A stretch of DNA of 64,000 bases, taken from the NCBI RefSeq assembly GCF_044324875.1, contig NZ_CP172185.1; one strand, written 5' to 3'. The first letter of the stretch is position 1. Each line of letters starts with the position of its first letter. A program made the translations under genes and the position numbers. Shown piece after piece: positions 22,933 through 39,565 of this stretch. The notes beneath the pieces are model-generated. The model worked only from the letters and a program-made list of their open reading frames with translations. It was not told the DNA's origin and searched no databases. This stretch comes from Escherichia coli. Lineage in GTDB: Bacteria; Pseudomonadota; Gammaproteobacteria; Enterobacterales; Enterobacteriaceae.

Positions 22933-23622
22933 TTAAATGCCGAGTGGGAAAATATCATGGCCTTGTTCCTGCCAACTGGTAAGTTGCTGCTGTTGGGCGG
23001 AGGTTCGATTTTCACCGCACCACACCAGCAATGTACGGCCTTCGAACAGTTCAGGGCGTAGTTGATTGAGCGAGTGGGCGAGGACATCAATGCGCCATCC
23101 TTGTTGACTGGCAATCCAGCCCTCCAGCCATAGACGGGTGGTATCGTGAATATTCCAGCCAACCACCAGCGCATCTTTACCCTGTTTTTTACGTGCCGAA
23201 GCCAGGCAAATGGCGATGTAGTTGATCAGTACGCCGTCAAGGATCGCCAGCAGCGCCTGGAGGGTCGGTTGTTGGCACTGAAGTCGTCGGCGCAGAGGAA
23301 TAAACAGATGCGTGGTGAGTGTCTGGGCAGGGTAATCCTGACCGCGCTCTTTGATCCACGTTCGCAGGCTATGCAGATTGCCGCTTTGCAGGTAAGTCAG
23401 TAATGTTTCTTGCTGATCGCGCCAGCCGTTCTGCACATCAACATTTTCATTACTGAGCAGCATTTTAACTTTGCTGACCTGCACGCCGTTGTCGATCCAG
23501 CGTTTGATCTCGCGGATCCGGTCAATATCGGCATCGTTGAACAGCCGATGGCCGCCGTCTGTCCGTTGCGGTTTCAGCAATCCGTAACGCCTCTGCCACG
23601 CGCGTAACGTGACAGGGATTAA
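22933..23622 (-). pseudogene. mlrA: MerR-family curli regulator MlrA (YehV), 5'-truncated by prophage insertion
   Basis: The frame reads ...PVTLRAWQRRYGLLKPQRTDGGHRLFND... to ...GHDIFPLGI and a stop. From recall of the 243-aa protein (MALYTIGEVALLCDINPVTL...), the first ~15 codons, the start codon and the promoter are missing. Similarity ends at about 23,615-23,625, next to a phage integrase gene. Confidence 0.85.
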
Positions 23623-23654
23623 GGGTAAACTAACTGATTTTACAAGTTTTTATT

Positions 23655-25719: not shown

Positions 25720-26345
25720 TTCACCTCCACGCCGATCCCGGCAATAACACAATCCCGTTTGATAGCTTCTTTCACCCAGCGTTTATAGGTTTCCGGATGG
25801 AATTTTGCGTTTTTTCCGGTACCGCTCCAGAATGCCTTTGATGTGATATCGGGCAGGGTGATGGTCAGGCCTTTCTTCTTGCTGCCTTCAGAACTTTTGC
25901 AAAAAGTTAATGCGTCGCGTAGTTCTTTAACACACGCATAGTTTTCTGCTTTCTCTGGGTCGCCGGTACGGTGTTCAGCTTCTTGTCTGCACCATTTGAT
26001 GACTTTCTCTGCGGCTGCGTGGAGACGCTGACGTTGCCAGTCGTATGTGTCGACCAGCCCATATGCGTGATTCTTTGCTTTGCTTAATTCAGCGACGAGG
26101 CATTCGGAATCAATCAAATTATTTTCCGCAGCGGACAGCGCTTGTTTAAGTCGCTCGATTTCTTGAGCCATGTAGTAGCCGGTTTTACTCCAGGTATCGA
26201 CATCATCGTCACTCATATCCAGTTCCATCGACGCCATCAGAACGGCGTCGTGATAGTTCTGGCTACCGCAGGTGATTGCAACGACGTAGGAGTCACTATT
26301 TTCTCGTTTATGGATAAGTACAACTGGGTTTTTGATCTTGCTCAT
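25716..26345 (-). CDS. Hypothetical phage early protein with central coiled coil (possibly Ead/Ea22-like)
   Basis: 209-aa ORF with a heptad-like segment EIERLKQALSAAENNLIDSECLVAELSKAKN. Confidence 0.7.
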   Translation of the reverse strand: MSKIKNPVVLIHKRENSDSYVVAITCGSQNYHDAVLMASMELDMSDDDVDTWSKTGYYMAQEIERLKQALSAAENNLIDSECLVAELSKAKNHAYGLVDTYDWQRQRLHAAAEKVIKWCRQEAEHRTGDPEKAENYACVKELRDALTFCKSSEGSKKKGLTITLPDITSKAFWSGTGKNAKFHPETYKRWVKEAIKRDCVIAGIGVEVK

Positions 26346-26353
26346 TCCGCACC

Positions 26354-26449
26354 TCAGTAATTCATTAAAAATTTATATTCAATCAGCGCACCGAAAACGA
26401 CGGACGCCAGCAGCAGACCAAACAGCATGGACAGGAGGAATGACTTCAT
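26354..26449 (-). CDS. 31-aa single-TM peptide
   Basis: Manual translation gives MKSFLLSMLFGLLLASVVFGALIEYKFLMNY. A GGGAGG Shine-Dalgarno sequence is present. The start overlaps the stop of the upstream 74-aa gene. Confidence 0.55.
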   Translation of the reverse strand: MKSFLLSMLFGLLLASVVFGALIEYKFLMNY

Positions 26450-26670
26450 CGCTTTGCCTCCCGCTGTACGATTTTGTAGGCGCGCAGGATGTCGCGTGTT
26501 TTTCCTGACAACGATGACTTAACCCAGAAAAAGCCGCTGCGGTTTTCATAGATCCCCTGTACATTAAACAGCACCGCATCAACAACGCGGTTATGCTTTT
26601 GCAATGTCAGGCAGGAACTGGTGATCACGATGTTCGCTACGGCGCCATAGTCCTTGTATTGGATTTTCAT
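26446..26670 (-). CDS. Hypothetical 74-aa protein
   Basis: ORF abuts the stop of the upstream gene with no intergenic gap. Confidence 0.6.
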   Translation of the reverse strand: MKIQYKDYGAVANIVITSSCLTLQKHNRVVDAVLFNVQGIYENRSGFFWVKSSLSGKTRDILRAYKIVQREAKR

Positions 26671-27009
26671 TTACATGTTCCCCATAACGGTATCGCTCAT
26701 GTCGTTAACCATGCTCTGCCAGATTTCTTTGCCGCTTTGCGTCAGCTCGTTTCCACGAACGCATTTGCTTAACAGCTGAATACCAACGGCTTCCCATTGG
26801 GGGTAATTTTCTTTGATAGCCTTCAGAGCATAACCATCGATTAAATCCCTGATACCTTTAACCCCACCGATGATGTTTACTCGTATGGATTGCCCATTGA
26901 CATTAATCATGAAATGATCTCCGTTGGTGGCGGATATGTGGTTGTGCAGTGCAGCCGCATACTGATTTGCCAGCGCATTGAGGCGGAAATTTTGTGTAAT
27001 GAGTGGCAT
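26671..27009 (-). CDS. Hypothetical 112-aa protein
   Basis: The start overlaps the stop of the upstream gene (TAATG). Confidence 0.65.
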   Translation of the reverse strand: MPLITQNFRLNALANQYAAALHNHISATNGDHFMINVNGQSIRVNIIGGVKGIRDLIDGYALKAIKENYPQWEAVGIQLLSKCVRGNELTQSGKEIWQSMVNDMSDTVMGNM

Positions 27010-27755
27010 TATTTACCCTCCCAACCAATCACCTGAAACAGCCCCATTTTCGGGTGATACCAGCGGGTACCGCGTGGCTCTGCCTCTGACATCATCTGAT
27101 GAAATGCTTTCATGAACGGCTCAAGCTCCACGATAGCCCGGCGAGAAAGAAGACCATCTGGCGTCATAAATTCGTGCGTATCGGTTGGGATGCTGTAGGC
27201 ATTGACCAGATTGCGGCACTTGGCATCAGTCATTCCGCTTTTGGCGACCACCTGGCGATAACCGACATATCCGGCGCGCATATTTCCGCGTTTGATGTTC
27301 TCCACAGCTTTGGTGACCGTTTCGATCTTCTCTTCAACATGACTCAGGCGCTTCTGCTGGCGAACGGCATCGGCGGCCATTGCAGCGATCATCTCCATTT
27401 CCGTCAGCGGCGCGTGAGTTCGGAAATAGCTGTTAACCAGTTCGCGCTGAACCTGCCATGCAAGAGTATCGTTAAAAGGCTTCGTCAACATCAGGTAACC
27501 AGACTCGAAAAGAATGATCCCTTTGGCAGTTCGCGCGGCAAAGGCATCAGAAAGTGACTCCGTACGTATTACGTCCGCAGTCATTTCAAGAAAATCCACC
27601 CCTTCGATAAAGTGAGAACGGTTGCGGTTAAACGCAGCACGGGCGGTACCTTCCGGGCGCTGGTGGACGTCATCAATCATTGCAAATGTCACAACACGCT
27701 GACCGCGATATTCGATTACCGGAAACTGTTTGTTGTTGATGGTTACAGTATTCAT
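27009..27755 (-). CDS. ORF6N/KilA-N-type DNA-binding protein (antirepressor-like)
   Basis: 248 aa from MNTVTINNKQFPVIEYRGQRVVTFAMIDDVHQRPEGTARAAFNRNRSHFIEGVDF (ORF6N-like N-terminus), with a GGAG Shine-Dalgarno sequence. The track ORF is extended upstream. Confidence 0.7.
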   Translation of the reverse strand: MNTVTINNKQFPVIEYRGQRVVTFAMIDDVHQRPEGTARAAFNRNRSHFIEGVDFLEMTADVIRTESLSDAFAARTAKGIILFESGYLMLTKPFNDTLAWQVQRELVNSYFRTHAPLTEMEMIAAMAADAVRQQKRLSHVEEKIETVTKAVENIKRGNMRAGYVGYRQVVAKSGMTDAKCRNLVNAYSIPTDTHEFMTPDGLLSRRAIVELEPFMKAFHQMMSEAEPRGTRWYHPKMGLFQVIGWEGK

Positions 27756-27798
27756 TTTTATCTCCAGACAGCCCGGCGTGTAATACCGGGCATATGTA

Positions 27799-28626
27799 TT
27801 ACTTAACCTGAATAAATGGTGTGTTGGCACCGCTGGTCATGTATTGCGGCAGTGTACCGTTCCACTTGTTGATGGCTTCCAGCTCCATAACGTTTGGGTT
27901 CTGGCGCAGAGCTTCACCGCGTAAACGAATAGCATCGGCTTCGGCCTGGGCTTTTGTGCGAATCGCATCTGCCTGTCCGGCAGCTTCCGCGCGCAACATG
28001 TTGGCTTCCGCTTCGCGCTGTTTTACTTCCTGCTCGCGTTGCAGGGTTTTCTGGTTGGCCGTGACTTTGGCATTAATGCTGTCGATAACAGTAGGCGGGT
28101 ACTCCGGCTTACCCACATATGAGAGGCTCATTACCTGAATACCGATGGGCGTCATTTCTTCCTGAATGTCTTTAAGAGCTGCATCCAGCAGCTCAGACTT
28201 GCCGCCGTCGATAAATTTGTCGGTGGTCATTTTGCTGGCCAGTCGGTTGAGTGCGTCGGCTATCTTCTGGCGCAGGTCGGTGTCGGTAATGTCGTCCACG
28301 CCTTTGCGGTAGGTCTGAAAGACTGTGGTAACTTTGGATGGATCAACTTTGTAGGCCACGCCGATGTGATAGCCGATGGTTGTACCGTCACTCATCTGGA
28401 AACTGAATGGATCATCGTAGGTCTTCATCTGCTTAAAGGTCGGGAAGATGTAAACCTCAGTGTTCCATCCCGTCCAGTAGCGCCCAACACCGACCACTTC
28501 ACCGACGCCTTTATCGTCGCCCAGTTTGTTTACTTTGATGCCCACATTACCAGGCTCAACGCGATCGCAACCGACAAGGCCAATGGTCGGCAGAACAATG
28601 GCTAAAGCAAAAAGTAATTTTTTCAT
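27799..28626 (-). CDS. SPFH/band-7 (prohibitin-like) lipoprotein, predicted inner-membrane anchored
   Basis: 275 aa with a signal peptide and the lipobox LVGC followed by Asp (+2). It has an SPFH-like core and an Ala/Glu/Gln-rich coiled coil (QREQEVKQREAEANMLRAEAAGQADAIRTKAQAEADAIRLRGEA). Confidence 0.8.
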   Translation of the reverse strand: MKKLLFALAIVLPTIGLVGCDRVEPGNVGIKVNKLGDDKGVGEVVGVGRYWTGWNTEVYIFPTFKQMKTYDDPFSFQMSDGTTIGYHIGVAYKVDPSKVTTVFQTYRKGVDDITDTDLRQKIADALNRLASKMTTDKFIDGGKSELLDAALKDIQEEMTPIGIQVMSLSYVGKPEYPPTVIDSINAKVTANQKTLQREQEVKQREAEANMLRAEAAGQADAIRTKAQAEADAIRLRGEALRQNPNVMELEAINKWNGTLPQYMTSGANTPFIQVK

Positions 28627-28811
28627 CTTTTATCCTTAGAAAAAGAAAGACCCTTATAAATGGCATAAATGCAGGGCGGGGTCAGACACGCCAGAGCAAA
28701 GCCAGAAATCACTGCTATCGTATCCTTCATGGATATAAGGAACGGAACGAGTAATCCGTAAATGCATGCGATAATTGCCAGTAAAATTACTATTGTGAAA
28801 TACAGTCTCAT
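28623..28811 (-). CDS. 62-aa two-TM membrane protein, translationally coupled to the SPFH gene
   Basis: Two hydrophobic spans (YFTIVILLAIIACIYGLLVPFLI and TIAVISGFALACLTPPCIYAIY). Its stop overlaps the SPFH ATG (ATGA). Confidence 0.6.
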   Translation of the reverse strand: MRLYFTIVILLAIIACIYGLLVPFLISMKDTIAVISGFALACLTPPCIYAIYKGLSFSKDKR

Positions 28812-28834
28812 TGGTCTGTGGTATCCCGATATTT

Positions 28835-28942
28835 TTAACCGACTGACAGCGCAATAAAGAGAATAATGATTTCTGTTAGTGTCAGCACTGTGGCAAGGAT
28901 TAAAATCAGTTTTACTCTGTTTAATTCACGGTTGCTTTTCAT
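28835..28942 (-). CDS. 35-aa single-TM peptide
   Basis: Manual translation gives MKSNRELNRVKLILILATVLTLTEIIILFIALSVG. The Shine-Dalgarno sequence is weak. It lies just downstream of a hairpin with a T-run. Confidence 0.35.
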   Translation of the reverse strand: MKSNRELNRVKLILILATVLTLTEIIILFIALSVG

Positions 28943-28954
28943 ATAAACGGTTAG

Positions 28955-28980
28955 TAAAAAACGGAAGAATTATTTTCTTC
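28955..28980 (-). terminator. Intrinsic-terminator-like hairpin inside the leftward operon
   Basis: The minus strand reads GAAGAA-AATAA-TTCTTC-C-GTTTTTT. Confidence 0.5.
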
Positions 28981-28987
28981 TTAATAT

Positions 28988-29569
28988 TTAATGTGTCACT
29001 GGCGCTTCTGGCATACCATGAGTATTCAGGTCGTGAATCATTTCATCCAGAAGGAGTTCAAGCCCTTCGCGCCCCATAGCAGAGAGAATGAAACCATTAT
29101 CAGGATCTGCGATGAGCATTTTTTGATAGAGAAACAGAACTCGCCCCATGCCTTCAGTTTCGCCATATTTTTCAATAAATCCCCATTCGACATGGTTTTG
29201 CAGGGCAATGCGAAGTGGTCCTGGGTATATACTTATGCAACCATGTTTCCCCTTGTAAATAACTGCGCGATCTGTCGTCCCGTTATCGTTAGGGATATCA
29301 ATAGTGCCGTTCTTGTCTTCCTCTTCACTGATAAACTTCATCACATACAGCCAGCGCCACTGAGCAACCTTCAGATCGACTGAAAATCTTCCCAGCAATC
29401 CGGCATCATCAGCTTCGGCAAGACATTGCATGATTCTTAAACCGTGCCAGTATGGATTATCGAATTCGCCATCATTAAGCCGCTGTACGGCCTGAATATA
29501 ATTAATGGTTGTATTACCAATTTTTATGCCATGTGGCGTTACTTCTGGTCGGAACTCTGAATGATTCAT
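28988..29569 (-). CDS. Hypothetical 193-aa protein
   Basis: ORF from MNHSEFRPEV, preceded by AAGGAG. It lies in an AT-rich block. I recognise no motif. Confidence 0.7.
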   Translation of the reverse strand: MNHSEFRPEVTPHGIKIGNTTINYIQAVQRLNDGEFDNPYWHGLRIMQCLAEADDAGLLGRFSVDLKVAQWRWLYVMKFISEEEDKNGTIDIPNDNGTTDRAVIYKGKHGCISIYPGPLRIALQNHVEWGFIEKYGETEGMGRVLFLYQKMLIADPDNGFILSAMGREGLELLLDEMIHDLNTHGMPEAPVTH

Positions 29570-29754
29570 AATATTTGCTCCTTTGCTGGTGGAATAATCG
29601 TGTAGCCAGCTCTTTTTGCCATCCACAGAAATGTATCCATGCAGCCAACGAATTCATTATCCAGCAGATGTTTTGAGTAAATTACTTCACCATTTTCAAT
29701 GGTTAGCAACACTCTTACTTTTTTATGTGTTATGTTTTGTTGTTTTTCTTCCAT
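29566..29754 (-). CDS. Hypothetical 62-aa protein
   Basis: ORF from MEEKQQNITH, preceded by GGGAG. Its stop overlaps the start of the next gene (ATGA). Confidence 0.6.
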   Translation of the reverse strand: MEEKQQNITHKKVRVLLTIENGEVIYSKHLLDNEFVGCMDTFLWMAKRAGYTIIPPAKEQIL

Positions 29755-29758
29755 TGAC

Positions 29759-29872
29759 TTATCTCCCATATGCTTTGCGCAAATACAGGTTGGCTATATG
29801 AAGATAAGAATCTCCATGTTGTGCAATGAGGCAGGCAGTTTTATACGATGCCTTATGTTTCAGGAAAGTCAT
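29759..29872 (-). CDS. Hypothetical 37-aa protein
   Basis: Manual translation gives MTFLKHKASYKTACLIAQHGDSYLHIANLYLRKAYGR. AGGAG lies 8 nt upstream. Confidence 0.4.
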   Translation of the reverse strand: MTFLKHKASYKTACLIAQHGDSYLHIANLYLRKAYGR

Positions 29873-29950
29873 AACATAATCTCCTGCGAATAAAGGTTGC
29901 AACAATCCCCGGCGATAAAACCGTAATAAACATTCAGGGAATATTTATTG

Positions 29951-30316
29951 TTATTGCGCTAATTCTTTTTCGGCAGCAGATTTTGCATATTCACATGCAA
30001 AATTCAGAATTTCGCTGCCAAGTGTTTTTGTTTCGTGATTACTGGACATATGTAATACCTGTGTTGCATGCAATAAATGATAAACATTTACCGCAAATGA
30101 GTCCGGCTCCAGACAAATGCCTTCATAATCATCTTGTTGTGAGGTTGTTTCTGTCATTGCTCCTGAAGTGCATGCGAGCCTGTTTTTGACAATTCTCTTT
30201 CCTCTAATCACTATATCGGCAACATCTATTGCCTTTACAACCTCCGGGAGAAGTTCCGGGTTTGTATAATCAAAGTCATCAACATGGAGAACAGTTATGT
30301 TTTCGAACTTTTTCAT
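29951..30316 (-). CDS. Hypothetical 121-aa protein
   Basis: ORF in the AT-rich block. I recognise no motif. Confidence 0.65.
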   Translation of the reverse strand: MKKFENITVLHVDDFDYTNPELLPEVVKAIDVADIVIRGKRIVKNRLACTSGAMTETTSQQDDYEGICLEPDSFAVNVYHLLHATQVLHMSSNHETKTLGSEILNFACEYAKSAAEKELAQ

Positions 30317-30557
30317 GGCTTCCTCAGCTGACTTATATGTTCTGCTATATAGCGAGTCTCAGAAGTGTTTTCATATTGAGACTGTTTCCGCAATGATTGA
30401 TAAAAATGTTCGCATGTACCTTGAGGGGCGAAGCGGCGATTATGTCACCATTGGTATTGGTTCTTCCGTAGAAGAGCTTCGCGAGATAAGGAGCAAACTT
30501 GTTGAGATGCGTCATGGTGTTGCTGCTCCTCACTTTTTGGTTGCTCCGGAGGAGTAA
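30297..30557 (+). CDS. Possible 86-aa protein encoded antisense to the leftward operon
   Basis: ORF MFSNFFMASSADLYVLLYSESQKCFHIETVSAMIDKN... with GGAGA 7 nt upstream. It overlaps the 5' end of the 121-aa gene and 113 bp of the 3' end of the HTH gene. Which strand is coding in the overlap cannot be settled by eye. Confidence 0.3.
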   Translation: MFSNFFMASSADLYVLLYSESQKCFHIETVSAMIDKNVRMYLEGRSGDYVTIGIGSSVEELREIRSKLVEMRHGVAAPHFLVAPEE

Positions 30558-30903
30558 CCTCGCCAGTTAACAGCCACATCGGATCACAGCCAAGAACATT
30601 AGCCAGAGGGATAATCTGGCTTGCCAGAGGCTCCCTCTTGCCACTTTCCCACTGGATGATAATTTCTTCATCGAGATTGAGCAGCCTGGCGAGTTCGGCG
30701 GTTGTTAAGCCGCAGGCTTCGCGTTGGGTGTCAATAGAGCGATATTTTTTGTTTCCAGAAGGTAACAGAACACGTTTTATCTGTTGGATTTTTTCTATTG
30801 CAACTTCAATGAGTATGTTGCGGTTTCTTTCTGATGCAGACTCCATGCTTTCATGAAGTAGTGATTCTGCTTGTTCGATAAGAATCAGTTGTAAAGAAGA
30901 CAT
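30445..30903 (-). CDS. XRE-family HTH protein with N-terminal helical extension; first gene of the PL operon
   Basis: 152 aa. The HTH segment is ACGLTTAELARLLNLDEEIIIQWESGKREPLASQIIPLANVLGCDPMWLLTGE. A GAGG Shine-Dalgarno sequence is present and a TTGACA promoter lies upstream. Confidence 0.75.
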   Translation of the reverse strand: MSSLQLILIEQAESLLHESMESASERNRNILIEVAIEKIQQIKRVLLPSGNKKYRSIDTQREACGLTTAELARLLNLDEEIIIQWESGKREPLASQIIPLANVLGCDPMWLLTGEVTPPEQPKSEEQQHHDASQQVCSLSREALLRKNQYQW

Positions 30904-30911
30904 AAGAAAAC

Positions 30912-30948
30912 CTCGTAACCAACATTTCGAAATCTAGGTTACGAGTGA
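30912..30948. promoter_or_regulatory. Candidate OL operator
   Basis: ctcgtaacc-N16-ggttacgag inverted repeat containing ATTTCGAAAT. It shares the 12-mer gaaatctaggtt with the OR region (31704-31715). Confidence 0.5.
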
Positions 30949-30964
30949 GTAATGTAGGTGTCAA
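30936..30964 (-). promoter_or_regulatory. Candidate PL promoter
   Basis: The minus strand reads TTGACA (30964-30959), a 17-nt spacer, then TAACCT (30941-30936). It overlaps an operator-like palindrome. Confidence 0.55.
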
Positions 30965-30988
30965 GTGTAATTGATAATTTTTTGTTGA

Positions 30989-31648
30989 TTAAATTTGCAT
31001 ACGCATCTCAACGACAACACCAAGAATTTCACAATCGCCATTGATAGGGATCAGTGGATAGCGTGGGTTTAGTGGTTTTAAGAAACATTGTCCTGCGTCT
31101 TCAATGTACTGTTTGAGGGTTGCTTCACCGGAATTTTTGAGTCTAGCGACAACATATTTTCCTGAAAAAACTTCTTTGTCAGGGTTTACAAGAATGTTCA
31201 TGCCTTCAAAGATTGAGAACTCCCCATTCTGTGACGTCATTGAGTCACCTTTTACCTCCAGCCAGAATCCGTTATCTCCTGCATATATATCGCTACCGAT
31301 CCAATCTTCTGGATAAGGTATGTAATCTTCGCAGTTCCAAGGGCCGGCGCTCACCCATGTTAATTTTGGGTATCTGTAACGCGTTGGAGAAGCTGGTTTG
31401 GGGTTTCGAACGTTTTGAATACTATCTGTAGGTGAAGGTTCGCTACCATCAAGGAGCCATTTAGGTGAGCATTTTAATGCATCTGCGATCCTGAATAGGT
31501 TTGACGATCTTGTGTCTTGTGAGTCTCCTAACTCTATTTTGCTGATTGTTACACGTGAGACACCCGTCAATTTTGCCAGGTCATCTTGTGACATGCCTAG
31601 CTGAACTCTACGCATTAACAATCTCTGTCCAAAACTATCGTGTTCCAT
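30989..31648 (-). CDS. cI: CI-type prophage repressor (XRE HTH + S24 LexA-like autopeptidase)
   Basis: 219 aa with an N-terminal HTH (MSQDDLAKLTGVSRVTISKIELG) and C-terminal S24 motifs (GDSM ... K). It is divergent from cro. Confidence 0.9.
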   Translation of the reverse strand: MEHDSFGQRLLMRRVQLGMSQDDLAKLTGVSRVTISKIELGDSQDTRSSNLFRIADALKCSPKWLLDGSEPSPTDSIQNVRNPKPASPTRYRYPKLTWVSAGPWNCEDYIPYPEDWIGSDIYAGDNGFWLEVKGDSMTSQNGEFSIFEGMNILVNPDKEVFSGKYVVARLKNSGEATLKQYIEDAGQCFLKPLNPRYPLIPINGDCEILGVVVEMRMQI

Positions 31649-31657
31649 CTTTTCTCT

Positions 31658-31748
31658 CCGTTGTCGAAATGATTTTTTCGAAACAAATATATCAAAAAAT
31701 ATTGAAATCTAGGTTTCGCAAAACTAAGATTGTTCGAAACAAACGTGT
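31658..31748. promoter_or_regulatory. Candidate tripartite OR operator region
   Basis: Three imperfect palindromes are built on TTCGAAA/TTTCG cores: ttgtcgaaatgattttttcgaaacaa, ttgaaatctaggtttcgcaa and ttgttcgaaacaa. Confidence 0.55.
31702..31730 (+). promoter_or_regulatory. Candidate PR promoter
   Basis: TTGAAA (31702-31707), a 17-nt spacer, then TAAGAT (31725-31730), about 28 nt upstream of the cro ATG. Confidence 0.5.
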
Positions 31749-31758
31749 CGAGGTCGAT

Positions 31759-31968
31759 ATGGATTTGTATGAAATTCTAAAAAACATATTTGGTTCGAAT
31801 GTTGAGATCGGTCGCCATTTTCCCCGAAAGGGAAGGGCTAGAACTGGACAGGCTGTAGGAAAGTGGAAAAAACAAGGGGTACCGGAGGATGTAGCGATTC
31901 TTTGCCATCTGGATCCCGCAATTCCTTATCAGCATCCGCCTCTCACGAACGGTAGTAATGGCGTATGA
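31759..31968 (+). CDS. cro: Cro-like repressor (YdaS/DUF1019-type HTH)
   Basis: 69 aa from MDLYEILKNIFGSNVEIGRHF. It is divergent from cI across the operator region. Confidence 0.75.
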   Translation: MDLYEILKNIFGSNVEIGRHFPRKGRARTGQAVGKWKKQGVPEDVAILCHLDPAIPYQHPPLTNGSNGV

Positions 31969-32281
31969 AATCTCTCCGGAGGGCTGTATGTCCCAGAGTT
32001 ACGTTCAGACAGAGATGCCATCTAGGTACTGTCAGGCAGACGAAGAGTGGATTCAGCAGCAGTTACAGGGGCTACCACCGTCACTGAGACGGAAGGTCGC
32101 CCTGAAATATGCGGAGGTATACGAAATCACTTTTGACGCTGAGCCTGTTTCATTCCGCAAGGAGAACAGAGCAAGGCACGAAGCAAACACAAGGCTCCGC
32201 TTGTTTGTGAGAAATCAGGGCAGAGCTTTACAGGGGTATGCAACTCAGCCGCCCCTGGCAGGAACGCAATCGCGCTCCTGA
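31958..32281 (+). CDS. Hypothetical 107-aa protein at the cII position
   Basis: ORF overlapping the cro stop. I do not recognise the family. Confidence 0.6.
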   Translation: MAYEISPEGCMSQSYVQTEMPSRYCQADEEWIQQQLQGLPPSLRRKVALKYAEVYEITFDAEPVSFRKENRARHEANTRLRLFVRNQGRALQGYATQPPLAGTQSRS

Positions 32282-39411: not shown

Positions 39412-39487
39412 GGCCCTTTAGCTCAGTGGTGAGAGCGAGCGACTCATAATCGCAAGGGCGCTGGTTCAAATTCAGCAAGGGCCACCA
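39412..39487 (+). tRNA. tRNA with CAT anticodon (Ile2/lysidine type like phage ileZ, or Met)
   Basis: Manual cloverleaf: acceptor GGCCCTT/AAGGGCC, D arm GCTC/GAGC, anticodon loop CTCATAA, T loop TTCAAAT, encoded CCA. There is one A-A mismatch at the top of the anticodon stem, and 53-61 is G-T. Confidence 0.8.
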
Positions 39488-39488
39488 A

Positions 39489-39565
39489 CCGCTACTAGCT
39501 CATCAGGAAAGAGCGTCAACCCTTTAAGTTGAGTGCGCTAGGTTCGATTCCCCGCTGGCGGTCCA
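39489..39565 (+). pseudogene. Decayed tRNA-like gene
   Basis: Canonical spacing, intact D and anticodon stems, and an encoded CCA. However, the anticodon loop is CCTTTAA (C at position 33), there are two T-stem mismatches and a C-C pair at 7-66. Confidence 0.4.

What the first reader, a model, noticed from the sequence alone, without database searches (positions are those of the whole stretch)
27799..28980. Insulated three-gene membrane cassette: 35-aa TM peptide, 62-aa two-TM protein and an inner-membrane SPFH/band-7 lipoprotein
Seen in sequence:
- The 275-aa ORF has a signal peptide with lipobox L-V-G-C and Asp at +2.
- It has an SPFH-like core and a long Ala/Glu/Gln coiled coil.
- Its ATG overlaps the stop (ATGA) of a 62-aa ORF with two clear TM spans, which is preceded by a 35-aa TM ORF.
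- The trio sits directly downstream of a hairpin plus T-run (28955-28980), inside an otherwise tightly packed PL operon. It therefore looks like a self-contained moron.

Established knowledge:
- Asp+2 is the E. coli Lol-avoidance (inner-membrane retention) signal.
- Cellular SPFH proteins usually work with a small membrane partner (NfeD/YqiJ type).
- The SPFH pair HflK/C controls FtsH, the protease that degrades lambda CII/CIII.

Inference: a prophage-borne periplasm-facing SPFH scaffold with small TM partners could do one of two things. It could tune FtsH and so the lysis-lysogeny decision. Or it could act at the inner membrane as a superinfection-exclusion or abortive-infection device. I know of no described phage-defence or lysogeny-control system with this composition.
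Basis: partly seen in the sequence, partly recalled or inferred. Interest (0 to 1): 0.68.

Follow-up and report, generated by a model that had tools for sequence, protein, structure and literature searches.

The report
Phage SPFH lipoprotein with two-TM partner
This is a real, conserved two-gene unit (not three): a small membrane protein plus a prohibitin/HflKC-like lipoprotein, the same pair as genes 19-20 of coliphage N4, found in hundreds of temperate and virulent phages with no known function.

Summary
The sequence features are all at the stated coordinates. Only two of the three ORFs form a conserved unit.

**What is real**
- The 275-aa ORF is a true SPFH/Band-7 protein (Pfam 8e-31; AlphaFold pLDDT 91). 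Its closest solved relatives are the cage-forming HflK/C, prohibitin, erlin and stomatin. It has a lipobox and Asp+2.
- The 62-aa two-TM ORF is under purifying selection.
- A homologue of it lies just upstream of the SPFH gene in 75 of 80 diverse viral contigs and most of 80 diverse bacterial genomes. In many bacteria the two are fused into one protein.
- The pair matches coliphage N4 gp19/gp20 (35% and 63% identity). It also occurs in P2-like, P1-like and SSU5/pMT1-like elements and in several virulent phage groups.

**What is not supported**
- The 35-aa ORF and the hairpin/T-run occur only in the phiP27-type context. The hairpin is weak (-4.3 kcal/mol).
- There is no PADLOC hit and the partner has no NfeD domain.

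**Interpretation**
- The pair sits in early lytic operons and in strictly virulent phages. This argues against a lysis-lysogeny role.
- It favours an inner-membrane scaffold acting during infection. The function remains unknown.

It is a new variant of the SPFH-plus-partner theme, of moderate interest.

The parts
27799..28626 (-). Gene for the 275-aa SPFH (prohibitin/HflKC-like) lipoprotein, a homologue of N4 gp20 and phiP27 L05
   Evidence: ORF. Pfam Band_7 8e-31. phrog_200 2e-115. AlphaFold pLDDT 90.9. Foldseek top hits are HflK/C, PHB1/2, erlin and stomatin. 63% identical to N4 gp20. pN/pS 0.03.
28564..28626 (-). Signal peptide, lipobox L-V-G-C (Cys20) and Asp+2
   Evidence: Read directly from the sequence. 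Cys20 is invariant in 62 diverse homologues, including the fused ones. Asp is at +2 in about 100 of 120 close homologues.
27901..28095 (-). Single 65-residue Ala/Glu/Gln-rich helix (aa 178-242), the presumed oligomerisation or cage wall
   Evidence: DSSP on the AlphaFold model. It aligns with the coiled-coil helices of the HflK/C and prohibitin cage protomers.
27802..27879 (-). Conserved C-terminal tail (E-A-I-x-K-W-N/D-G-x-L-P ... P-F)
   Evidence: W255 and G257 are invariant and P260 nearly invariant in alignment A1. pLDDT is low in the monomer model.
28623..28811 (-). Gene for the 62-aa two-TM inner-membrane partner, a homologue of N4 gp19
   Evidence: ORF. phrog_1130 4.7e-23. pN/pS 0.22-0.24 against 0.9-1.4 in the off-frames. 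35% identical to N4 gp19, E=2e-7. Aligns without gaps in the core to the N-terminal domains of fused homologues. Adjacent to the SPFH gene in 75 of 80 viral contigs.
28623..28626 (-). ATGA stop/start overlap (translational coupling)
   Evidence: Read directly. Kept in all 80 near-identical loci and in P88. An 8-nt overlap occurs in N4 and Moo19.
28835..28942 (-). 35-aa hydrophobic ORF. Lineage-specific and doubtful; not part of the conserved unit.
   Evidence: No family hit. Found only in phiP27-type loci. pN/pS 0.56. No recognisable Shine-Dalgarno sequence.
28956..28980 (-). Weak hairpin plus T6 downstream of the L06-like gene. Lineage-specific.
   Evidence: -4.3 kcal/mol, z=-1.57. Missed by the terminator scan. 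Absent from the other upstream contexts.
27771..27791 (-). GC-rich hairpin just after the SPFH stop, with no T-run. It marks the mosaic junction with neighbouring DNA.
   Evidence: -13.7 kcal/mol, z=-1.46. Homology to other prophages starts at window 27770, 27786 or 27799 (query positions 71, 87 or 100).

Best explanation
**What it is**
The functional unit is a two-gene operon (28811 to 27799, - strand). It is the E. coli-prophage copy of the coliphage N4 gp19-gp20 module.

- Gene 1 encodes a 62-aa hairpin of two TM helices. Both ends are in the cytoplasm, and a short conserved loop (P-x-L-I/V-S-x-x-D/S-T) faces the periplasm.
- Gene 2 is translationally coupled to gene 1. It encodes a prohibitin/HflKC-like SPFH protein that is exported, lipid-modified at Cys20, and held at the periplasmic face of the inner membrane (Asp+2).

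**What is shown**
- The fold.
- The conservation of the pair.
- The fusions of the two proteins.
- The distribution across phages and bacteria.

**What is inferred**
- The SPFH protein assembles into a ring or cage over a patch of inner membrane, as its solved relatives do. It would use its 65-residue helix and its conserved C-terminal W-x-G-x-x-P tail.
- The two-TM protein is its stoichiometric membrane partner or anchor.
- The pair sits in early lytic transcription units of four unrelated temperate backbones and in strictly virulent phages. Partnered copies also sit in housekeeping contexts in several bacterial phyla.
- It is therefore most likely a borrowed cellular membrane scaffold that phages express during lytic growth. 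It would organise or shield inner-membrane proteins, keeping the membrane functional until programmed lysis. FtsH-type quality control is the leading candidate client, by analogy with prohibitin and HflK/C.
- It is probably not a lysogeny switch.
- The 35-aa ORF and the hairpin are local features of the phiP27 lineage.
For: **SPFH identity and fold**
- Pfam and PHROG hits.
- AlphaFold pLDDT 90.9.
- Full-length Foldseek matches to the cage protomers HflK/C, PHB1/2, erlin, stomatin, flotillin and QmcA.
- In a sequence-profile search of the PDB, prohibitin is best at 5e-9, then HflK and QmcA.

**Partner linkage**
- The ATGA overlap is kept in all close loci and in P88.
- 18 representatives of 322-392 aa are natural fusions of the form 2TM + signal-like TM with Cys + SPFH. 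Continuous fused ORFs also occur in fetched DNA (L100, L104, four viral loci).
- The alignment of the 62-aa protein with the fused N-termini has no gaps in the core.
- An HMM built from those seeds finds a homologue immediately upstream on the same strand in 32 of 80 diverse genomes, and in 53 of 80 after iteration.
- The same seed HMM finds one in 75 of 80 diverse viral contigs, with only 77 hits among 8,533 ORF segments.

**Membrane orientation**
- The positive-inside pattern is read directly from the sequences.
- The Arg/Lys-rich linkers of the fused forms place the SPFH domain outside.
- Cys20 is invariant, and Asp+2 is present in about 100 of 120 close homologues.

**Lytic-phase context**
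- N4 gp19/gp20.
- Moo19, Pokken, Seu621, PaP4 and SunLIRen.
- P88, between cox and A.
- RCS47, where the pair replaces tciABC inside the C1-controlled ban operon.
- The window's own leftward operon, running from the repressor to int.

**Cellular origin**
- The nearest genes in 55 distant chromosomal loci are housekeeping genes.
- They are conserved within Leptospira and within Hymenobacter.
Against: - There are no expression, localisation or phenotype data of any kind.
- Oligomerisation is inferred from relatives that share only 14-18% identity.
- Interaction with FtsH is pure analogy: the NCBIfam HflK and HflC models score far below their cut-offs.
- A moron-type promoter in the phiP27-type context is not excluded. 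Many relatives carry a perfect TATAAT inside the hairpin, so prophage expression is possible.
- About 20 of the 80 genome loci, a lipoprotein clade with the CTRIDAG motif, mostly Bacteroidota, lack the partner. The SPFH protein can therefore work alone.
- In some virulent phages one or two unrelated genes separate the two partners.
Confidence: 0.5

Rival explanations
1. Superinfection-exclusion or abortive-infection device. The periplasmic SPFH ring with its two-TM partner blocks DNA entry of incoming phages at the inner membrane, or triggers membrane collapse. It would be expressed from the prophage, or early in infection as with T4 Imm/Sp and T5 Llp.
For: - It is an envelope-located accessory gene pair that moves between unrelated phages.
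- It lies next to a gene annotated 'superinfection exclusion' (P22 gp17-like) in N4 and Moo19 and in PhiSH19 (PMC3220722).
- In P1-like phages it occupies the slot of tciABC, the TerB-like tellurite/colicin-resistance genes.
- Virulent phages also encode exclusion lipoproteins (established knowledge).
Against: - No PADLOC hit, and no PHROG exclusion family hit.
- Partnered homologues sit in conserved housekeeping contexts in Leptospira, Hymenobacter and Acidobacteriota. This points to a general cellular role, not an anti-phage one.
- In temperate backbones the pair lies in repressor-controlled early operons, so it may not be expressed in lysogens at all.
Confidence: 0.2
2. HflK/C mimic that tunes FtsH, and through it CII/CIII stability and the lysis-lysogeny decision of the carrier prophage.
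For: - It has the same predicted orientation as HflK/C and prohibitin.
- Its closest solved relatives work with FtsH-family proteases.
- There are weak NCBIfam matches to HflC and HflK.
- A CII-like regulator lies in the same operon.
Against: - The same pair is in strictly virulent phages that have no lysogeny decision.
- HflK and HflC model scores are 24-26 bits against cut-offs of 134-159.
- There is a single SPFH gene, not a K/C pair, and a lipid anchor instead of an N-terminal TM helix.
Confidence: 0.07
3. Lysis-timing control. The periplasmic cage delays or sharpens holin triggering, or protects against lysis from without, by stabilising the energised membrane.
For: - It is a periplasm-facing inner-membrane protein expressed with early genes of lytic programmes.
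- N4 is known for very delayed lysis (own knowledge, not tested here).
Against: - The pair is not linked to lysis cassettes in any locus examined.
- Chromosomal homologues occur in non-phage contexts.
Confidence: 0.1
4. One reading: a self-contained, terminator-insulated three-gene moron expressed from the prophage. This could include a lysogenic-conversion or virulence lipoprotein, as reported for a Pasteurella prophage HflK/C-like protein.
For: - The hairpin plus T6 upstream and the GC hairpin downstream flank the genes in this lineage.
- Many relatives have a TATAAT within the upstream hairpin.
- PM0222 is a 25-35 kDa prophage HflK/C-like protein of P. multocida. It is found in outer-membrane vesicles, signals through TLR1/2 and affects virulence (PMC9872710).
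Against: - The 35-aa ORF and the hairpin are absent from the other contexts of the same pair.
- The hairpin is weak, and promoter-like sites are not above chance.
- Homology of PM0222 to this family was not tested.
Confidence: 0.08

Closest known systems
Coliphage N4 gp19 (membrane protein) / gp20 (lipoprotein). Equivalents: phiP27 L05, P88 gp11/gp12, Y. pestis pMT1-type plasmid genes (PHROG 1130 / PHROG 200).
   Same: - The same two genes in the same order with overlapping stop and start.
- 63% (SPFH) and 35% (2TM) identity to N4.
- 97.8% identity to phiP27 L05 and 92.8% to P88 gp12.
   Different: Nothing essential: this is a member of that family. The phiP27 lineage adds a 35-aa ORF and a weak hairpin upstream. 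No function is known for any member (PMC13239085).
HflK/HflC-FtsH complex of E. coli
   Same: - SPFH1/2 domains plus a long helix.
- Top structural matches.
- The large domain is predicted to face the periplasm while anchored in the inner membrane.
   Different: - 16-18% identity, with scores far below the HflK and HflC family cut-offs.
- One gene instead of a K/C heteropair.
- A lipid anchor instead of an N-terminal TM helix.
- A dedicated two-TM partner.
- No evidence of FtsH binding.
Prohibitin (PHB1/2) and bacterial 'p-prohibitins' (SPFH4 of Hinderhofer et al. 2009)
   Same: - The best sequence-profile match in the PDB.
- Some annotators call relatives 'prohibitin family protein'.
- SPFH4 is proposed to face the periplasm and has no NfeD partner (PMC2636767).
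   Different: - That paper mentions no lipoprotein anchor, no two-TM partner and no phage carriage (0 occurrences of 'lipoprotein' or 'phage').
- Assignment to SPFH4 was not tested with their models.
SPFH-NfeD operons (QmcA-YbbJ, YqiK-YqiJ, YuaG-YuaF)
   Same: An SPFH gene in an operon with a small membrane-protein gene. Fusions and co-inheritance argue for a complex.
   Different: - The partner has only two TM helices and no NfeD/OB domain (no Pfam hit).
- QmcA and YqiK face the cytoplasm (established knowledge), whereas this protein is exported.
Phage envelope lipoproteins used for exclusion (T5 Llp, Cor, TP-J34 Ltp)
   Same: A phage-encoded lipoprotein acting in the envelope, also carried by virulent phages.
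   Different: - No sequence relationship appeared in the PHROG or PADLOC scans.
- Those are small receptor or tape-measure blockers, not SPFH scaffolds.

Membership tests
SPFH / Band 7 superfamily (Pfam PF01145) | Sequence match to the Band_7 model above its gathering score | tested here: met
   107.9 bits against a cut-off of 23.6; E=8e-31; residues 22-208.
SPFH / Band 7 superfamily (Pfam PF01145) | SPFH alpha/beta fold followed by a long helix, as in the cage-forming members | tested here: met
   AlphaFold pLDDT 90.9, helix at 178-242. Foldseek probability 1.0 to HflK/C, PHB, erlin, stomatin, flotillin and QmcA over 240-300 columns.
SPFH / Band 7 superfamily (Pfam PF01145) | Assembly into a large ring or cage on a membrane | not testable with these tools
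   Only a monomer could be modelled. The invariant C-terminal W255/G257 is suggestive only.
HflK / HflC (FtsH modulators) | Match to the HflK or HflC equivalog models at their trusted cut-offs | tested here: not met
   TIGR01932 scores 26 bits against 134.4. TIGR01933 scores 23.6 against 159.4.
HflK / HflC (FtsH modulators) | Two paralogous SPFH genes forming a heteromer, each with an N-terminal TM anchor | tested here: not met
   There is a single SPFH gene with a cleavable lipoprotein signal. The neighbour is a 62-aa two-TM protein.
HflK / HflC (FtsH modulators) | Binding and regulation of FtsH | not testable with these tools
   This needs co-purification or substrate half-life assays.
SPFH-NfeD operon | The partner carries an NfeD (OB-fold) domain | tested here: not met
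   The 62-aa protein has no Pfam or NCBIfam hit at E<=0.1, and 62 aa is too short for an OB domain.
N4 gp19/gp20-type pair (PHROG 1130 + PHROG 200) | Both proteins homologous and adjacent in the same order | tested here: met
   phrog_200 2e-115 and phrog_1130 4.7e-23. BLASTP to N4 gp20 1e-131 and to gp19 2e-7. Overlapping genes in both.
Bacterial lipoprotein retained in the inner membrane | Lipobox [LVI][ASTVI][GAS]C after a signal peptide | tested here: met
   L-V-G-C at residues 17-20. The Cys is invariant in 62 homologues.
Bacterial lipoprotein retained in the inner membrane | Lol-avoidance residue (Asp at +2 in E. coli) | tested here: met
   Asp21 is present here and in about 100 of 120 close homologues. 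Its strength with Arg at +3 was not assessed.
Bacterial lipoprotein retained in the inner membrane | Actual acylation and inner-membrane localisation | not testable with these tools
   This needs globomycin or palmitate labelling and membrane fractionation.
Known anti-phage defence systems (PADLOC-DB v2.0.0) | Match of any component to a defence-system model | tested here: not met
   No hits at E<=0.1 for the three ORFs or for three neighbours. Newer catalogues were not available.
Moron (autonomous promoter-gene-terminator insert in a phage operon) | Own promoter and own terminator flanking the genes | tested here: inconclusive
   The upstream hairpin folds at -4.3 kcal/mol with z=-1.6. The downstream hairpin lacks a T-run. 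Promoter-like sites number 5 against 8.7 expected. These features are absent in other contexts of the same pair.

The most novel reading that the evidence does not exclude
The N4 gp19/gp20-type pair is a phage-wide inner-membrane cage system with a dedicated role in phage-phage or phage-host conflict. It might shield the energised membrane of the infected cell from depolarising abortive-infection effectors or from superinfecting phages.

Its biogenesis may also be unusual. The lipobox Cys is invariant even in the fused forms. The two-TM domain could therefore act as a cleavable pro-domain that signal peptidase II releases from the lipidated SPFH protein.
Probability: 0.2. Interest if true: 0.75.

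Novelty: new variant of a known kind. Interest (0 to 1): 0.45.

Why it matters
**How widespread it is**
- SPFH genes related to this one are in 809 of 50,697 phage records. Of these, 84 are at least 60% identical; the rest are more distant.
- They are in 675 plasmid records, mostly P1-like and SSU5/pMT1-like phage-plasmids.
- They are in about 10% of complete E. coli genomes (547 of 5,426).
- A 2026 paper still states that the reason phages carry them is unclear.

**What this analysis adds**
- It defines the unit as two genes.
- It identifies a partner family that is not NfeD.
- It supplies Rosetta-stone fusions as evidence that the two proteins form a complex.
- It points to N4, a genetically tractable model phage, as the place to find the function.

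**What a result would mean**
If the protein proves to be a periplasmic prohibitin-like cage, it would extend the SPFH-partner theme to lipoproteins and to phage biology. As it stands, this is a well-defined family of unknown function, not a demonstrated new system.

Tried and rejected
- **PADLOC:** the scan of the three ORFs and three neighbours found nothing.
- **Rfam:** the scan of 26000-32000 found nothing.
- **Pfam and NCBIfam on the small ORFs:** no hits, so an NfeD-type partner is rejected.
- **Pfam on ten fused homologues:** only Band_7 was found, so the two-TM domain is not a described family.
- **Literature searches:**
  - Terms tried were SPFH with prophage, anti-phage, phage defense, superinfection exclusion, lipoprotein or N4-like, and bacteriophage N4 with gp19/gp20.
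  - No functional study turned up.
  - The only phenotype found was for a Pasteurella prophage HflK/C-like protein, whose homology to this family I could not test.
- **First genome scan:** the 62-sequence alignment failed because it had no conserved stretch. A 12-sequence alignment worked.
- **Iterated two-TM HMM:** this carries a risk of drift toward generic TM helices, so I rely on the non-iterated seed HMM for the headline counts. All iterated hits still fell directly upstream of the SPFH gene.
- **Small genes between the partners in PaP4, SunLIRen and Seu621:** they are unrelated to each other and mostly soluble, so they are not a third component.
- **P88 gp07:** this 37-aa TM peptide is not similar to the 35-aa ORF.
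- **Strong intrinsic terminator upstream:** rejected.
Full report
**1. What is in the sequence**

On the - strand, the ORF listing and the raw sequence show the following.
- A 275-aa ORF at 27799-28626 begins MKKLLFALAIVLPTIGLVGC|DRVEPG. This is a lipoprotein signal with the lipobox LVGC and Asp at +2.
- A 62-aa ORF at 28623-28811 has a TGA that overlaps the ATG of the large ORF (ATGA).
- A 35-aa hydrophobic ORF lies at 28835-28942.
- A 6-bp hairpin plus T6 lies at 28980-28956, just after the stop (28988-28990) of the upstream gene.

**2. The large ORF is an SPFH protein of the cage-forming type**

- Pfam Band_7 matches at 8e-31.
- PHROG 200, annotated 'lipoprotein', matches at 2e-115.
- An AlphaFold model built on 62 diverse homologues has mean pLDDT 90.9. 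It shows the signal helix, the SPFH beta/alpha core, one 65-residue helix (178-242), a short helix and a low-confidence tail.
- Foldseek against the PDB gives full-length matches (probability 1.0) to HflK/HflC, prohibitin 1/2, erlin 1/2, stomatin, flotillin and QmcA.
- A sequence profile puts prohibitin first (5e-9), then HflK and QmcA.
- It is not an HflK or HflC orthologue. It scores 24-26 bits against trusted cut-offs of 134-159.

**3. The 62-aa ORF is a real gene and the obligate neighbour of the SPFH gene**

*Selection.* Among 80 near-identical viral loci the ORF is always intact with the ATGA overlap. pN/pS is 0.22-0.24, against 0.9-1.4 in the two off-frames; the SPFH gene gives 0.03. 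These pairwise values are not independent and are only indicative.

*Other phage backbones.*
- In the P2-like phage P88, a divergent 67-aa two-TM protein (gp11) overlaps the SPFH gene gp12 in the same way.
- In the P1-like phage RCS47, an unannotated 78-aa homologue overlaps the SPFH gene.

*Fusions.* An exhaustive HMMER search of 1.84 billion representatives found 230 relatives at E<=1e-30.
- 18 of the listed relatives, 322-392 aa long, carry an N-terminal extension. This extension is the two-TM protein fused to the SPFH protein through a basic linker and a third, signal-like TM helix that still ends in a lipobox Cys.
- The window's 62-aa protein aligns to these N-termini without gaps in the core. 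They share the motif P-x-L/M-I/V-S-x-x-D/S-T between the helices.

*Co-occurrence test with an HMM built from these seeds.*
- In 80 diverse bacterial genome loci (Enterobacterales to Leptospira, Bacteroidota and Acidobacteriota), it finds a homologue immediately upstream on the same strand in 32 loci at E<=1e-3, and in 53 after iteration.
- At least four more loci have a partner that the HMM missed.
- About 20 of the 80 loci, a lipoprotein clade with the CTRIDAG motif, mostly Bacteroidota, have no partner.
- In 80 diverse metagenomic viral contigs fetched afterwards, the unchanged seed HMM hits 75 loci: 62 adjacent, 9 within 1 kb upstream and 4 fused. There are only 77 hits among 8,533 ORF segments on both strands.

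This is strong evidence of a functional, probably physical, link between the two proteins.

**4. The 35-aa ORF and the insulation do not hold up**

- The same gene pair has at least three upstream contexts among near-identical loci. Only the phiP27-type context has the hairpin and the 35-aa ORF. In 33 loci the pair follows another gene directly, with an AGGAGG Shine-Dalgarno sequence.
- Homologues of the 35-aa peptide exist only in phiP27 and 46 close loci, and in none of 160 diverse loci.
- One locus has ATG changed to ATA, and pN/pS is 0.56 against 0.77-1.2 off-frame. The ORF may be a lineage-specific small protein or nothing; the data cannot tell.
- The hairpin folds at only -4.3 kcal/mol (z=-1.6) and is missed by the terminator scan. 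Its T-run is interrupted in several relatives.
- Promoter-like sites are not above chance. However, many relatives carry a perfect TATAAT inside the hairpin, so a weak promoter is not excluded.
- A GC-rich hairpin (27771-27791, -13.7 kcal/mol, no T-run) follows the SPFH stop. It coincides with the point where homology to other prophages begins.

**5. Where the pair occurs**

*Host and prophage.*
- The host is E. coli: the flanking yehW-mlrA region is 99.3% identical to E. coli genomes. The prophage lies at mlrA/yehV.
- The prophage is phiP27-like. The pair lies in the leftward gene string between the repressor region and xis/int.

*Match to N4.* The SPFH protein is 63% identical to coliphage N4 gp20 (1e-131). 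The 62-aa protein is 35% identical to N4 gp19 (2e-7). The gene overlap is the same.

*Phages (tblastn).* 809 phage records match, 84 of them at 60% identity or more.
- Temperate: phiP27-like Stx phages, P88, P1-like phages, Burkholderia phi1026b.
- Strictly virulent: N4-like Moo19 and Pokken, Vequintavirinae, Ounavirinae, Bruynoghevirus, jumbo phages.
- The two-TM partner was found beside or near the SPFH gene in the virulent phages examined.

*Plasmids and genomes.*
- 675 plasmid records match, 634 of them non-mobilizable. Their sizes are typical of P1-like and SSU5/pHCM2/Y. pestis pMT1-like phage-plasmids.
- 547 of 5,426 complete E. coli genomes carry a DNA-level relative.

*Position in temperate backbones.*
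- In P88 the pair sits in the early operon between cox and the replication gene A.
- In RCS47 it takes the place of tciA-tciB-tciC of P1, inside the C1-controlled ban operon.

*Bacterial chromosomes.* In distant chromosomes the neighbours are housekeeping genes, conserved within Leptospira and within Hymenobacter. The module is therefore also a stable cellular gene pair.

**6. How it most likely works**

*Shown:*
- the fold;
- the lipobox with its invariant Cys;
- Asp+2 in about 100 of 120 close homologues;
- the partner linkage and the fusions.

*Read from the sequences:* the positive-inside pattern puts both ends of the 62-aa protein in the cytoplasm and its conserved loop in the periplasm. 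In the fused forms, the basic linker and the third helix put the SPFH domain outside. This agrees with inner-membrane retention independently of the +2 rule.

*Inferred:*
- Like its solved relatives, the protein forms a ring or cage on the periplasmic face of the inner membrane, with the two-TM protein as a stoichiometric membrane partner.
- The pair lies in early lytic units and in virulent phages, and has cellular relatives. I therefore favour an auxiliary membrane scaffold used during infection. It would shield or organise inner-membrane proteins, with FtsH-type quality control the leading candidate by analogy, and keep the membrane functional until lysis.
- I put this at about 0.5 overall. 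The architecture is much more secure than the physiological role.

*Rivals:*
- exclusion or abortive infection, 0.2;
- lysis-timing control, 0.1;
- a prophage-expressed moron or virulence lipoprotein, 0.08;
- lambda-type FtsH/CII tuning, 0.07.

The last is disfavoured because virulent phages carry the same pair.

**7. Comparison with what is known, and novelty**

- The pair belongs to the N4 gp19/gp20 family (PHROG 1130 and PHROG 200).
- It works like the SPFH-partner operons, but the partner lacks an NfeD domain. The SPFH protein is an exported lipoprotein, not a cytoplasm-facing or TM-anchored protein.
- The survey of prokaryotic SPFH families (PMC2636767) mentions neither lipoproteins nor phages.
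- A 2026 paper says the reason for SPFH genes in phages is unclear (PMC13239085).
- No defence model matches.
- I rate it a new variant of a known kind, of moderate interest. It is a common, well-delimited phage accessory module of unknown function, and N4 offers an obvious experimental entry point.

Noticed in passing
window 22933-23650: The prophage is integrated at mlrA (yehV), a classic Stx-phage attachment site. Homology to E. coli chromosomes ends at about 23622, and the mlrA reading frame (a 215-aa ORF here) appears cut at its 5' end.
   Followed up: partly
L084 4222-5000 and L085 (Shigella flexneri and E. coli representative genomes): A roughly 770-bp IS1-like element with a 9-bp target duplication (GGATAAAAG) is inserted exactly at the junction between the two-TM gene and the SPFH gene. 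It breaks the stop/start overlap.
   Followed up: partly
L003 3775-4011 (- strand), phage RCS47; compare L251 15234-15930, phage P1: An unannotated 78-aa two-TM gene precedes the RCS47 SPFH gene. Together they occupy the slot that holds tciA-tciB-tciC (TerB-like tellurite/colicin resistance) in P1, inside the C1-controlled ban operon.
   Followed up: yes
proteins (e.g. N-termini ...GIIGYDRVEPG...GLVGWDRV...GLVGFDRV): Several clusters of close homologues have the lipobox Cys replaced by Tyr, Trp or Phe. This would leave an uncleaved signal anchor instead of a lipid anchor.
   Followed up: no
fused homologues P0151-P0252: All fused 2TM-SPFH proteins keep a lipobox-like Cys after the third TM helix. 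They may therefore be cleaved and lipidated internally, which is an unusual biogenesis if true.
   Followed up: no
window 27799-28811 compared with close loci: Synonymous divergence is about three times higher in the SPFH gene (pS 0.20) than in the adjacent 62-aa gene (pS 0.06) within the phiP27-type loci. DNA matches to P88 and P1-like phages cover only 27832-28578. This suggests recombination breakpoints inside the SPFH gene.
   Followed up: partly
window 27009-27830 (likely start 27755), - strand: The gene directly downstream is an ORF6N-domain anti-repressor-like protein (Pfam 3e-13, phrog_1726). Only one E. coli genome in the list shares this junction; most relatives diverge right after the SPFH stop.
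   Followed up: no
window 39412-39565, + strand: Two adjacent tRNA genes (Met-CAT and Lys-TTT) lie inside the prophage.
   Followed up: no
window 28988-29769, - strand: The L07-like ORF (29566-29769) overlaps the L06-like ORF (28988-29626) by 61 nt if the GTG start at 29626 is used. The true start of the L06-like gene is probably further downstream.
   Followed up: no
L250 669-983 (N4 gp18), L164 1891-2205 (Moo19 gp29): In N4-like phages the pair lies directly after a gene annotated as superinfection exclusion (P22 gp17-like). The Vi01-like phage PhiSH19 also lists an SPFH gene next to a 'superinfection exclusion protein' (PMC3220722).
   Followed up: no
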